Below are positions 10,096-20,019 of a stretch of DNA of 40,868 nt, piece after piece. Position numbers and translations under genes: made by a program. The notes under the pieces were generated by a model, which ran no database searches, was not told the DNA's origin, and worked only from the letters and a program-made list of their open reading frames with translations. The stretch lies in the IMG/VR virus record IMGVR_UViG_3300016265_000761, positions 1 through 40,868 of that record; one strand, 5' to 3'. The stretch is from a virus. Its lineage: Duplodnaviria > Caudoviricetes. How positions within the stretch are numbered: position 1 is the stretch's first letter; each line of letters starts with the position of its first letter.

Positions 10096-10256
10096 TGAAA
10101 CACGAAACCGTTGCGATTCTATGTTGTGTAGTGCTGGTGCTCACGATCTTGATAGTAGATTTTGATGAGTCTAATAGCCGCTGGTGTGAAACATATCCAG
10201 AACTTTGCGCCCCAGATCAAACAGAAATAGCCAAATCGGAGGATCGATCATGCTGA
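10092..10256 (+). CDS. Small single-TM protein (54 aa, not in ORF track)
   Basis: MMKHETVAILCCVVLVLTILIVDF...; AAGGAG RBS; ATGA overlap. Confidence 0.6.
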   Translation: MMKHETVAILCCVVLVLTILIVDFDESNSRWCETYPELCAPDQTEIAKSEDRSC

Positions 10257-10537
10257 AAATATCTTTGATTTTTATAACCGAGTTTGTTTCTTGCCTGCGC
10301 TCTCTGCCGGTTAGTTGCTCGTATCAGTGTGCCAAATTAAAAGCAATTATCGAAGCAAGAAAAATACAGATAGCCAAAGCAGAGAAGCAAGGCTCTGTGG
10401 CATATCTTCGTGACAAAAGCATTGCCGACAATCCGTACCTGACCGGTGAAATGTTTGTGGCTTGGCGCAATGGCTACAGGAAAGAAAAGAAGCAATGGCA
10501 GCCTAATTTAACCTTTTATGGGGTTGACTATGATTAA
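10250..10537 (+). CDS. Protein with C-terminal Rmf/CrpP-like motif
   Basis: AEKQGSVAYLRDKSIADNPY...AWRNGY; GGAGG RBS. Confidence 0.6.
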   Translation: MLKISLIFITEFVSCLRSLPVSCSYQCAKLKAIIEARKIQIAKAEKQGSVAYLRDKSIADNPYLTGEMFVAWRNGYRKEKKQWQPNLTFYGVDYD

Positions 10538-17926: not shown

Positions 17927-18223
17927 ATGAACGAACTCGAACTAATAGAAAAGCTAAGCAAGGCAATATCAGACAATATCAGCGGTGTTAGTGTGCCTCT
18001 TGATAAAAGGCCGTGGTCATCTGCTCAATGTGCCGATTATCTTGGCATTGAGGTTAATACGTTTCACACCTCAATTGCACCGTTACCGCAATTTCCGCGA
18101 GCGATTCGCGCCATCACAGGCCGCGGACGCTCTCAGCCTCGCTGGATTGCCCAAGAGGTTATTGATTGGTGGCTATCGCATCGGGAAGAAACTGAGAATA
18201 GAAGAAAACGAAAAAGCGCTTAA
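17927..18223 (+). CDS. Excisionase/AlpA-like winged-helix protein
   Basis: WSSAQCADYLG...PQFPRAIR...PRWIAQEVIDW; last gene of the operon facing int. Confidence 0.75.
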   Translation: MNELELIEKLSKAISDNISGVSVPLDKRPWSSAQCADYLGIEVNTFHTSIAPLPQFPRAIRAITGRGRSQPRWIAQEVIDWWLSHREETENRRKRKSA

Positions 18224-18230
18224 ATATCAC

Positions 18231-18259
18231 TTGACATACAGGCACAATGAGCCTATAAT
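18231..18259 (+). promoter_or_regulatory. Consensus sigma70 promoter with operator palindrome in the spacer
   Basis: TTGACA-N17-TATAAT; AGGCACAATGAGCCT at 18240-18254. Confidence 0.9.
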
Positions 18260-18321
18260 TATTTCCATGGTTAGCAATAACGCAAACCGCCGCGCCTCGG
18301 GAACAGGGGCTGGAGATTAGA

Positions 18322-18564
18322 ATGATTAATACTGATAACGATATTTTAGAGGCGTGCCAAAAACATGGTAGCAAAAAAGTATATGAAGCAGCTTATGCTT
18401 TTATGCGTAACGACCTCGAAGCGCTCCCTAGCGTTGGACTAAAAAACCCGAATGGAATGGGGGAAGCTGATTACATAGGATCAAAGGTCTTTAAAATGCT
18501 AGGGCAAGTAGACAAAGCAAAAGACTTGGCTGACATTACAATTGATCTAGCAAAGATTAAATGA
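18322..18564 (+). CDS. Hypothetical 80-aa protein; candidate anti-CRISPR/anti-defence protein
   Basis: GGAG RBS; lies between a strong promoter and an Aca-like HTH gene; function inferred from context only. Confidence 0.7.
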   Translation: MINTDNDILEACQKHGSKKVYEAAYAFMRNDLEALPSVGLKNPNGMGEADYIGSKVFKMLGQVDKAKDLADITIDLAKIK

Positions 18565-18806
18565 CTAACCATCCAAATCGCAGCCGGGCGGCAAACCCGG
18601 CAAGCAATCCCACGCCGGACGAAATACTGGGTATGCGCTTTAACGCCGGATTAACGCAGCAAAAAGCAGCCGATCTGGTTTATGTTTCAGCGAAAACATG
18701 GAGGAGCTGGGAGGCAGATCCATCTAGCCAATCTCATCGCCGTATGCACCCGGCAATCTGGGAATTATTTTTGCTGAAAACTGGGCAGACAAAACTTGAC
18801 ATTTAA
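18561..18806 (+). CDS. Aca1/Aca3/KorC-like HTH repressor
   Basis: NPTPDEI...AGLTQQKAADLV...TWRSWEA...RRMHPAIWELF. Confidence 0.8.
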   Translation: MTNHPNRSRAANPASNPTPDEILGMRFNAGLTQQKAADLVYVSAKTWRSWEADPSSQSHRRMHPAIWELFLLKTGQTKLDI

Positions 18807-19783
18807 TCAAGCCGCTTTGCAATTTCTTCGGCTGGCATGTTGAAATAAACCTGCAATTGGCGTAAATCACGATGCCCGACCATTCTGGCAAGCTCAAGTA
18901 TATTCAGCTTTTTTGCTAATCTTGTAATAGCGGTGTGGCGTGTATCGTGAAAGTGCAAATCATTAATCAGCGCCATCTTTTTAGCTTTGCGAAATAACGA
19001 ATCGATCTGGCTTGTTTGCAGATCGAATACCAAATCATTGCTGCGCGTTAATTGATTCAATATCCGAATCGCTTCGCTTGATAACGGAACCTCGCGCTTA
19101 TGCCCGTTCTTTGTTTGCCACAACATCGCAACGCGCCGTTCCAGATCGACATCACGCCAGCACAATCCGCAAATCTCCCCGGCTCGCATTGCTGTTTCAA
19201 TTGCGAATAATAGCGCCGCCCCTACCCTAGCCGATATTGTCGCCGGTTGCCGCTCGAAATCGTAACCGAGCGCGTACAACAACCGCTCAAGCTCATCATC
19301 AGAAATCAGCCGATCCCGCGGCAATGGTTGTGCTGGTCGCTTAACTCCCTTAATCGGATTTTCTTTCAACCAGCCCCATTCATTGATTGCAACATTTACA
19401 GAATGCCGTAAAAGATTCCATTCACGCAGCACCGTGCCAGCCGTAACGACACGAAGCCTCCTATCGCGCCATGCCGCAAAATGTTCGGGTTTCAGATTAA
19501 TCAGCTTCACCGCTGCAATCTCATCGCGCCCAAGCGCTTTTATGCGCTTTATCTCCCACTCACCGCCGCGCTTTGTTGTGCTTACCTCATCTGCATACCT
19601 GTCAAGCAACTCGCCGAATGTCTTGTCAGGTATCTTGCCGTCTAACCCGTCGAGTATCTCGCGTTCAATATCAGCCGCCCAGTGTTGCGCCTCGGTCTTT
19701 GTATCAAATGTTCTAGACCTGCGGACACCTTTGCGACAGACGGACGCCTCCCATCCGTTACCTTTTTTTCTCAGCGATGCCAT
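18803..19783 (-). CDS. int: Tyrosine integrase
   Basis: ETAMRAGEI, TKNG, HFHDTRH, MVGH...QVYF catalytic R-K-H-R-H-Y set. Confidence 0.95.
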   Translation of the reverse strand: MASLRKKGNGWEASVCRKGVRRSRTFDTKTEAQHWAADIEREILDGLDGKIPDKTFGELLDRYADEVSTTKRGGEWEIKRIKALGRDEIAAVKLINLKPEHFAAWRDRRLRVVTAGTVLREWNLLRHSVNVAINEWGWLKENPIKGVKRPAQPLPRDRLISDDELERLLYALGYDFERQPATISARVGAALLFAIETAMRAGEICGLCWRDVDLERRVAMLWQTKNGHKREVPLSSEAIRILNQLTRSNDLVFDLQTSQIDSLFRKAKKMALINDLHFHDTRHTAITRLAKKLNILELARMVGHRDLRQLQVYFNMPAEEIAKRLD

Positions 19784-20019
19784 TCCGTAATTTATTCCGT
19801 AAAATTTCCGTAATATTAGCGGAAATTATCGAAACAAATCGAAGAAAATATTATTTTGATGCTGTTAAGTTTTGGCTTGAAACGGCTTGAATGCTACGTT
19901 TTAAAGAAAAATTGAAATTTATTGAATGTTTACGATAACTGCTACTGGTGCCGAGAGGGGGAATCACAAAACCGCTTATATGCTACGTTTGCGCTATGCG
20001 TTCCGTATAATTTCCGTAA
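19783..20019. other. attP region with arm-type repeats
   Basis: TTCCGTAA at 19783, 19795, 19806 and 20012, TTCCGTAT at 20001; 22-bp imperfect direct repeats at 19880 and 19969 flank the core. Confidence 0.8.
19946..19965 (-). other. att core: tRNA 3'-end fragment
   Basis: Minus strand GATTCCCCCTCTCGGCACCA = part of T-loop, T-stem, acceptor strand and CCA. Confidence 0.8.

What the first reader, a model, noticed from the sequence alone, without database searches (positions are those of the whole stretch)
18231..18806. acr-aca-type cassette encoding an unknown 80-aa candidate anti-CRISPR/anti-defence protein
Seen: between xis and the 3' end of int lies an independent unit with a perfect TTGACA-N17-TATAAT promoter. 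An imperfect palindrome, AGGCACAATGAGCCT, fills the spacer. An 80-aa ORF follows, with an overlapping (coupled) 81-aa HTH gene. Knowledge, from memory and needing verification: the Aca1 operator of Pseudomonas phage JBD30 is AGGCACAATGTGCCT, one mismatch away and also in the -35/-10 spacer. The HTH pattern TP..I..R..AGLTQ..AA...R.WEA...R.M...W resembles Aca3/Aca1/KorC. Inference: this is an immediately expressed, autorepressed anti-defence locus. I cannot match the cargo to any known Acr, so it may be a new family.
Basis: partly seen in the sequence, partly recalled or inferred. Interest (0 to 1): 0.87.

Follow-up and report, generated by a model that had tools for sequence, protein, structure and literature searches.

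The report
Swappable self-repressing phage counter-defence cassette
A small insert in a temperate phage joins a consensus-perfect promoter and an Aca10-like repressor gene to an unnamed 80-residue protein family; the layout matches known anti-CRISPR operons, so the protein likely blocks a host defence early in infection, but its target is unknown.

Summary
In detail: 12/12 promoter, spacer palindrome, 80-aa ORF, overlapping HTH. The HTH is closest to Aca10 (PDB 7XI5, E 1e-13), not Aca1 or Aca3 (E about 0.1-0.4). The genes behind that leader are highly varied (67 families among 69). One contig from another sample lacks exactly the 583-bp unit, so it is likely an accessory insert. The Aca1-like operator probably reflects one shared residue: Arg48 sits where Aca1 Arg47 reads that guanine and where Aca10 has Gln. 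The cargo is a real three-helix family (about 75 homologues) with no match in Pfam, PHROGs, NCBIfam, PADLOC or PDB. It travels with several unrelated regulators and is sometimes fused to them, which argues against a toxin-antitoxin pair. Counter-defence of some kind about 0.55, anti-CRISPR specifically about 0.25; no activity is shown. The cassette class is published, and this scan noted similar cassettes in two other genomes; the cargo family and the operator variant are what is new.

The parts
18220..18223 (.). left TTAA repeat, containing the xis stop codon; left border of the insert
   Evidence: sequence; a contig of run X3 joins 18219 to 18803 with 4 shared letters
18231..18259 (+). sigma-70 promoter, TTGACA-N17-TATAAT, 12/12
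18238..18256 (.). predicted operator: imperfect inverted repeat centred on 18247, overlapping the -10 box; Aca10 register with Aca1-type GGC arms
   Evidence: binding untested
18269..18288 (+). predicted leader hairpin 1 (sequence varies among relatives, hairpin kept)
   Evidence: z below -1.64 in 79 of 89 leaders with a promoter
18290..18315 (+). near-invariant leader element CCGCGCCTCGGG-loop-CAGGGGC (predicted hairpin 2) followed by the GGAG ribosome-binding site
   Evidence: no Rfam family
18322..18564 (+). cargo gene, 80 aa, predicted three-helix protein of an unnamed family; candidate counter-defence factor
   Evidence: homologues; models; no family match
18561..18806 (+). Aca10-like helix-turn-helix gene, 81 aa, overlapping the cargo stop by 4 nt; predicted autorepressor
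18803..18806 (.). right TTAA repeat: HTH stop codon overlapping the integrase stop codon; right border of the insert
17927..18223 (+). flank: excisionase-like gene
   Evidence: PHROG hits, best named phrog_668 E 1.4e-6 and phrog_66 E 0.006
18803..19783 (-). flank: tyrosine integrase, converging on the cassette
   Evidence: PF00589 E 4e-27

Best explanation
The unit is a 583-bp cassette between the converging xis-like and integrase genes of a temperate phage, in which a consensus promoter likely fires as soon as the DNA enters the cell, an Aca10-like dimer likely shuts it off by binding the palindrome over the -10 box, and the 80-aa cargo likely disables a host defence protein by binding it during that early window. 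Shown: promoter, palindrome, leader, gene order, HTH kinship, variable cargo slot, cargo family and its changing regulators. Inferred: early expression; repression, with Arg48 reading the outer G of each arm as Aca1 Arg47 does; a role of the leader hairpins in translation; that the cargo is a non-enzymatic binder (its conserved positions are nearly all Gly, Ala, Val, Leu). The target is not identified; type I CRISPR-Cas is one candidate, restriction and abortive systems are others.
For: HTH: best PDB match 7XI5 = Aca10 (E 1.4e-13; family profile E 7e-26; identity of 7XI5); Aca10 residues Q22, R44, E52, K57 kept as Q33, R60, E68, K73. Aca10 binds a palindrome in this position. Leader: found upstream of 27 of 60 HTH-retrieved loci (loose pattern 40 of 60; background 1 of 65); conversely 28 of 52 leader hits with a ribosome site have such an HTH within 2 kb against 0 of 20 without; 17 of 69 in cellular genomes; the same motif stands in published aca promoter sets (11 places; of the 3 labels seen, 2 aca10 and 1 aca3). 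Slot contents: 67 families among 69 first genes, among them ArdC-N, DUF932 (3), RadC/JAB and LPD29 and a weak AcrIF2 relative (E 2.6e-4); the founding aca10 operon carries AcrIC7 and AcrIC6. Accessory status: one contig skips 18220-18802, and loose ends suggest the same leader and HTH with another cargo; xis abuts int in two related prophages (L311, L314). Cargo relatives sit before an Aca10-like HTH (L326), before other HTHs (L324/L325, L019) or are fused to RHH- or HTH-like tails.
Against: No activity, binding or expression data. No cargo relative was seen beside a verified Acr (3 distinct loci with context besides the window). No Acr-named Pfam or NCBIfam model hit any slot gene. The cargo is not strongly acidic (pI 5.7), whereas most AcrIC proteins are acidic. 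The leader also occurs without the HTH, for example before an IrrE-type gene and an SSB gene, so it is not specific to counter-defence. Aca10 did not bind its predicted RNA motif in published gel shifts. The empty-site and cargo-swap contigs are single, short and of depth 2-3. In all 4 loci with context the cargo is the gene directly before the regulator, which also fits a partner or co-regulator role.
Confidence: 0.55

Rival explanations
1. Narrow form of the main reading: the cargo is a new anti-CRISPR against a type I system (I-C, I-E or I-F) of the host. Counted within the 0.55 above.
For: Aca10 was defined beside AcrIC6 and AcrIC7; a slot gene weakly matches AcrIF2; in the likely host family Cas8c, type I-E Cas7 and Csy3 occur in 42, 25 and 27 of 190 genomes (one of the 25 is the unpublished G566).
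Against: Known Acrs are rare in this slot; Aca10 is linked to few known Acrs in the literature; no sequence or fold match to a solved Acr; pI 5.7.
Confidence: 0.25
2. The cassette is regulated as described, but the cargo serves phage-phage competition or host take-over (superinfection exclusion, lysogeny bias, slowing a host process), not counter-defence.
For: Most slot genes are unannotated, and some are not obvious counter-defence genes (SSB, YccJ-like, AAA ATPase). The phage is temperate and the unit lies at the att/int end.
Against: Autorepression would keep expression low in a lysogen (inference from Aca biology), a poor design for exclusion; the annotated slot genes lean to anti-restriction and polyvalent domains.
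Confidence: 0.22
3. The cargo is a regulatory partner (co-repressor, anti-repressor or sensor domain) of the adjacent DNA-binding protein, so the pair is a split regulator.
For: It directly precedes the regulator in 4 of 4 loci with context and is fused to RHH- or HTH-like domains in several homologues (P0026, P0058, P0073 with sub-threshold Pfam hits; P0079, P0033, P0031, P0060 by eye).
Against: The partners are of unrelated folds and lie on either side (RHH-like N-terminal in P0060); none of the other 80 HTH-retrieved loci holds the cargo; most homologues are stand-alone proteins of 73-88 aa.
Confidence: 0.13
4. Type II toxin-antitoxin pair: the cargo is a toxin neutralised by the HTH protein.
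For: Toxin-first order as in higBA; Aca10-type HTHs resemble HigA and MqsA.
Against: No fixed partner on either side: 29 families among 32 genes upstream of the HTH, and at least three kinds of regulator beside the cargo; no toxin model hit; the HTH has no extra neutralising domain.
Confidence: 0.07

Closest known systems
acrIC7-acrIC6-aca10 operon of Pseudomonas citronellolis (Aca10, PDB 7XI5; PMC7913775, PMC9410881)
   Same: HTH clearly homologous (E 1.4e-13); palindrome with a CA-N-TG core in the promoter spacer, right arm running into the -10 box; small gene(s) followed by the HTH; hairpin-rich leader.
   Different: Cargo matched no family searched; recognition-helix Q37 is Arg, R34 is Lys, Q38 is Ser; operator arms read AGGC instead of ACGC; 5-residue longer loop before the conserved Arg; second leader hairpin differs from the founding operon's but equals that of other published aca10 promoters.
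acrIF1-aca1 operon of phage JBD30 (Aca1; PMC8633003)
   Same: Operator differs by one base; Ser42, Arg47 and Arg59 have counterparts Ser43, Arg48, Arg60 and Arg44 is Lys45 in the alignment.
   Different: Protein similarity is not significant (E 0.095-0.11); one operator here, two at JBD30; different leader.
Structured 5' UTR motifs of acr-aca operons (Aca2, Aca1, predicted for Aca10; PMC13551039)
   Same: Hairpin directly after the predicted start site, fixed distance to the start codon, reported for 139 aca10 operons.
   Different: Their consensus is a figure that could not be seen; Aca10 did not bind it in their assays; here the second, invariant hairpin also occurs with no Aca10-like gene nearby.
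Self-regulating anti-CRISPRs and RHH-type Aca14 (AcrIIA1, AcrIF24; PMC13551039, PMC9410906)
   Same: Cargo homologues are fused to HTH- or RHH-like domains.
   Different: The window's cargo is unfused, and no function is known for the fused forms.

Membership tests
Aca10 | Sequence homology to the founding protein | tested here: met
   phmmer E 1.4e-13 over residues 15-75; family profile E 7.3e-26
Aca10 | Residues Q22 and R44 (DNA) and E52, K57 (dimer) | tested here: met
   Q33, R60, E68, K73 in the alignment; roles. G49 is Ala, as in many relatives
Aca10 | Recognition-helix Q37 and ACGC-type operator arms | tested here: not met
   Arg48 and AGGC arms; Gln in 28 of 36 HTH-promoter pairs, 25 of them with C..G arms. 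Hence 'Aca10-like variant', not a strict member
Aca10 | Dimer binds the promoter palindrome and represses | not testable with these tools
   needs gel shift and reporter
Aca10 | Encoded with a verified acr gene | tested here: inconclusive
   cargo matches no library searched; libraries do not hold every Acr
Aca1 | Sequence homology | tested here: not met
   E 0.095-0.11
Aca1 | GGCAC half-site operator in the promoter | tested here: met
   left arm identical, right arm one mismatch
Aca3 | Sequence homology | tested here: not met
   PDB 9vt3 E 0.44
KorC | Sequence homology | tested here: inconclusive
   no KorC entry appeared in PDB, Pfam, PHROGs or NCBIfam hits; no direct comparison was made
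Known anti-CRISPR families (cargo) | Sequence or fold match to a described Acr | tested here: inconclusive
   no hit in PDB sequences, Pfam, NCBIfam, PHROGs; fold searches best Z 6.1 and 5.1, generic helices; no dedicated Acr database on hand
Known anti-CRISPR families (cargo) | Inhibits a CRISPR-Cas system | not testable with these tools
   needs plaque or transformation assays
Type II toxin-antitoxin system | Fixed cognate pairing of the two genes | tested here: not met
Type II toxin-antitoxin system | Toxicity neutralised by the partner | not testable with these tools
   needs expression assays

The most novel reading that the evidence does not exclude
The cargo founds a new, widely scattered anti-CRISPR family with a fold unlike solved Acrs, active against a type I system of ammonia-oxidising bacteria, some members of which regulate themselves through fused RHH or HTH domains; and one Gln-to-Arg change moves an Aca10-type repressor onto Aca1-type operators, allowing cross-repression between unrelated phages.
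Probability: 0.2. Interest if true: 0.75.

Novelty: new variant of a known kind. Interest (0 to 1): 0.48.

Why it matters
The cassette class is known, but its contents mostly are not. The cargo is a conserved, unannotated family that is cheap to test. The invariant leader is a DNA handle that retrieves such expression units without any protein search (about 460 stretches estimated in the viral collection; roughly seven in ten hits carried a ribosome site), giving a pool of dozens of candidate counter-defence families. The Gln/Arg correlation offers a one-residue, testable rule for operator choice among Aca-type repressors. A counter-defence gene in a phage of nitrifying bacteria bears on a poorly studied host group.

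Tried and rejected
Cargo identity: no hit in Pfam, PHROGs, NCBIfam, PADLOC; PDB sequence hits were repeat artefacts (Pizza proteins) or E 1.9; Foldseek against PDB and viral models gave nothing at E 0.001; wide structural searches gave only generic helical matches (best Z 6.1, rmsd 3.5, 68 aligned; Z 5.1, rmsd 3.9, 64 aligned); ESM Atlas gave no usable hit. None of this shows that the fold is new. A deeper alignment did not improve the model (pLDDT 79 with 18 rows, 73 with 76; residues after about 60 uncertain). Homodimer prediction gave no answer. No cargo match in annotated phages or plasmids, in 190 genomes of the likely host family or, apart from one weak hit with stops, in 401 genomes of the phylum; none in the leader-, HTH- or operator-retrieved loci. 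Three representative hits were dropped from alignments as junk or fragments (P0030, P0039, P0077). Rfam: no family. Covariation of hairpin 2 could not be tested: the alignment was selected on that sequence (5 pairs, none compensatory). No second operator or leader in the window beyond chance. No RNA holder listed. Two upstream genes (L281, L286) look like AcrIC6 from recall only; PDB gave no hit and the supplement that might hold the sequence could not be read, so this is not counted. A second laying of reads was not obtained, so the empty-site joint rests on one contig. 'Aca1 homologue' and 'Aca3 homologue' rejected on E-values; TA pair made unlikely by partner swapping.

Full report
1. Observation. 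The window is a linear, 71% complete virus record with terminase, portal, capsid, lysozyme, RecT and integrase genes. The promoter at 18231-18259 is the only 12/12 match in 4.5 kb. The palindrome at 18240-18254, the 80-aa ORF (18322-18564) and the overlapping 81-aa ORF (18561-18806) are as described. The palindrome alone is modest (6 of 8 pairs; 3.5% of shuffles). The cargo gene is AT-rich (39% G+C against 45% for the window and 49% for int).

2. The regulator is Aca10-like. Against PDB sequences the HTH matches 7XI5 at E 1.4e-13; Aca1 scores 0.095-0.11, Aca3 0.44, HigA2 0.025. A profile of 13 relatives gives E 7e-26 for 7XI5. 7XI5 is Aca10 (PMC9410881), a dimer that binds a 19-bp palindrome over its promoter and did not bind the Aca1 operator. 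Q22, R44, E52 and K57 are kept; R34, Q37 and Q38 are Lys, Arg and Ser.

3. Why the operator looks like Aca1's. Relatives share a spacer palindrome with a CA-N-TG core ending in the -10 box. The window has G where Aca10 has C in the left arm, with the mirrored change in the right arm. In Aca1, Arg47 reads the first G of GGCAC (PMC8633003), and window Arg48 aligns with it. Among 36 distinct HTH-promoter pairs, all 5 with Arg there have G..C arms; of the other 31, 28 have Gln (25 with C..G arms), 2 have Ala, and 1 truncated match has G..C arms. Caveat: 4 of the 5 Arg cases came from a search for the G..C operator (16 of 126 hits in promoter register, 4 with an HTH, all remote from Aca10), and the Gln cases are related to each other, so this is a lead, not a statistic.

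4. The transcript would start with a hairpin (18269-18288), then CCGCGCCTCGGG-loop-CAGGGGC and a GGAG site (whole-leader z only -1.3). A DNA search found 122 loci in 17 of 64 parts of the viral collection and 93 in cellular genomes with a stricter pattern. Of viral hits with 1 kb or more downstream, 28 of 52 with a ribosome site had an Aca10-like gene within 2 kb, against 0 of 20 without; in genomes 17 of 69. In the reverse direction, 80 loci retrieved by the HTH (the best of 307) reduce to 65; of 60 with enough upstream DNA, 27 hold the strict and 40 the loose motif, against 1 of 65 control stretches (some contigs are shared with the motif set). Hairpin 1 varies in sequence but folds better than shuffles in 79 of 89 leaders. 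Rfam has no match. The motif is in 11 places of the published aca promoter tables; I saw 3 labels, two aca10 and one aca3, all with hypothetical cargo (PMC9410906 supplement). PMC13551039 reports a predicted RNA motif in 139 aca10 operons that Aca10 did not bind; its consensus is a picture I could not see, so identity with this element is likely but unchecked.

5. The slot is variable. First genes behind the leader form 67 clusters among 69; genes before the HTH 29 among 32 callable. Annotated ones include ArdC-N, DUF932 (three), RadC/JAB, LPD29, DUF6948, DUF7699, SSB and IrrE-type proteins; most have no family, and no Acr-named model hit (79, 85 and 87 proteins). Of two genes picked because they looked Acr-like to me, one matched AcrIF2 weakly (E 2.6e-4) and one nothing.

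6. The unit is accessory. In run X3 a contig joins 18219 to 18803, skipping 583 nt with 4 shared letters; that leaves the xis and int stop codons overlapping in one TTAA, of which the window has a copy at each end. Other X3 contigs share only the leader (18266-18324) or begin to match at the HTH start, with different flanks, as expected for a swapped cargo. These are single low-depth contigs of a relative and could be misassembled. Among 14 integrase relatives in 13 of 190 genomes, xis abuts the int 3' end in two (L311, L314), and none carried the cargo or HTH within the fetched loci.

7. The cargo is a real family without a name. 17 close homologues at 70-93%, 58 representatives up to E 0.001 (three dropped) and further ones give a 76-row alignment whose near-invariant positions are G16, V20, A23, A24, L35, L40 (D68 too). 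AlphaFold predicts three helices, the last long and uncertain after residue 60. No library or fold search named it (see Tried and rejected). Context is known for three other loci: L326 (same leader, another first gene, cargo, Aca10-like HTH), L324/L325 (small gene, cargo, an HTH with no significant PDB match) and L019 (gene shared with an Aca10-type cassette, cargo, remote HTH). Several homologues are fused to RHH- or HTH-like domains, including P0079 at 69% identity. This refutes fixed pairing; but the cargo is next to the regulator in all four loci, which keeps the co-regulator rival alive.

8. Host. G001 is the genome of locus L164, titled Nitrosomonas sp.. In its family, 47 of 190 genomes match the window's DNA, up to 76% over 2.7 kb, and the integrase reaches 66%, against 47% for the best listed annotated phage. 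Other families were not compared, so a Nitrosomonas-like host is likely, not shown. Type I-C, I-E and I-F markers occur in 42, 25 and 27 of those 190 genomes (one of the 25 is the unpublished G566).

9. Mechanism. Best reading (0.55): strong early transcription, translation from the structured leader, coupled synthesis of the HTH, shut-off at the palindrome, and a small helical cargo that binds and blocks a host defence protein. The regulatory half I put near 0.9; the uncertainty is the cargo. Anti-CRISPR specifically 0.25 (within the 0.55); other accessory role 0.22; co-regulator 0.13; TA 0.07.

10. Literature seen. PMC9410881: parts 2-4 of 5 of the text, supplement searched. PMC13551039: abstract, all Results, supplementary text, no figures. 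PMC9410906: passages, two of 330 supplement parts and motif searches. PMC7913775, PMC8633003, PMC12658196 and bioRxiv 10.64898/2026.05.02.722434: passages only; the supplement of the first could not be read and that of the preprint is closed, and either could list relatives of the cargo. Four paper searches (aca10 + anti-CRISPR; aca10 + anti-defence; Aca1 + R47 + DNA complex; Nitrosomonas + anti-CRISPR + phage) cannot test by sequence whether the cargo family is in print; it may lie among the unannotated clusters of PMC13551039.

11. Verdict. A real, well-delimited aca10-class cassette with a changed operator code and an unnamed cargo family. New variant of a known kind; interest 0.48.

Noticed in passing
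window 19930-19965: 26-45-nt near-exact matches in 9 of 190 genomes of the likely host family, upstream of int; by eye the 3' end of a tRNA (recall: Leu), so probably the attP core. ARAGORN finds no whole tRNA in the window.
   Followed up: partly
L160, L178, L179, L184, L192, L197 (around 3001): The invariant leader element stands, without its own promoter, between the end of a higB-like gene (by eye) and a 400-aa IrrE/M78-domain gene: it may act as a portable translation signal.
   Followed up: no
L037 1428-3897: One phage carries five copies of promoter plus leader within 2.5 kb, each before a different small gene, with one Aca10-like gene at the end: a likely regulon.
   Followed up: partly
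L035, L036, L056, L059, L064, L098 (first ORFs): Several unrelated genes behind the leader begin with the same N-terminal motif (NHPNRS-like) as the HTH proteins; the motif may be a mobile 5' coding tag rather than part of the HTH fold.
   Followed up: no
window 18803-18806: The cassette meets the integrase gene head-on with overlapping stop codons and no predicted terminator at its end, so read-through would be antisense to int.
   Followed up: no
L019 3-224; L237/L045: The gene before the cargo relative in L019 is 61% identical to a first gene of an Aca10-type cassette: both draw on one gene pool.
   Followed up: partly
L281:2691-2996, L286:2681-2998, P0060 N-terminus: Resemble AcrIC6 and its N-terminal RHH-like part from recall only; not verified.
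   Followed up: partly
L170 (NZ_JBHSGG010000036.1): This leader-bearing contig is also cited as an Aca-regulated locus in figure 3E of PMC13551039.
   Followed up: no
window 10205-10537: 110-aa ORF with a ribosome modulation factor domain at the curated cut-off (PF04957, E 2e-6).
   Followed up: no
plasmid records H15-H44: Aca10-like HTH genes occur on 87 plasmids, 67 of them conjugative; their neighbours were not examined.
   Followed up: no
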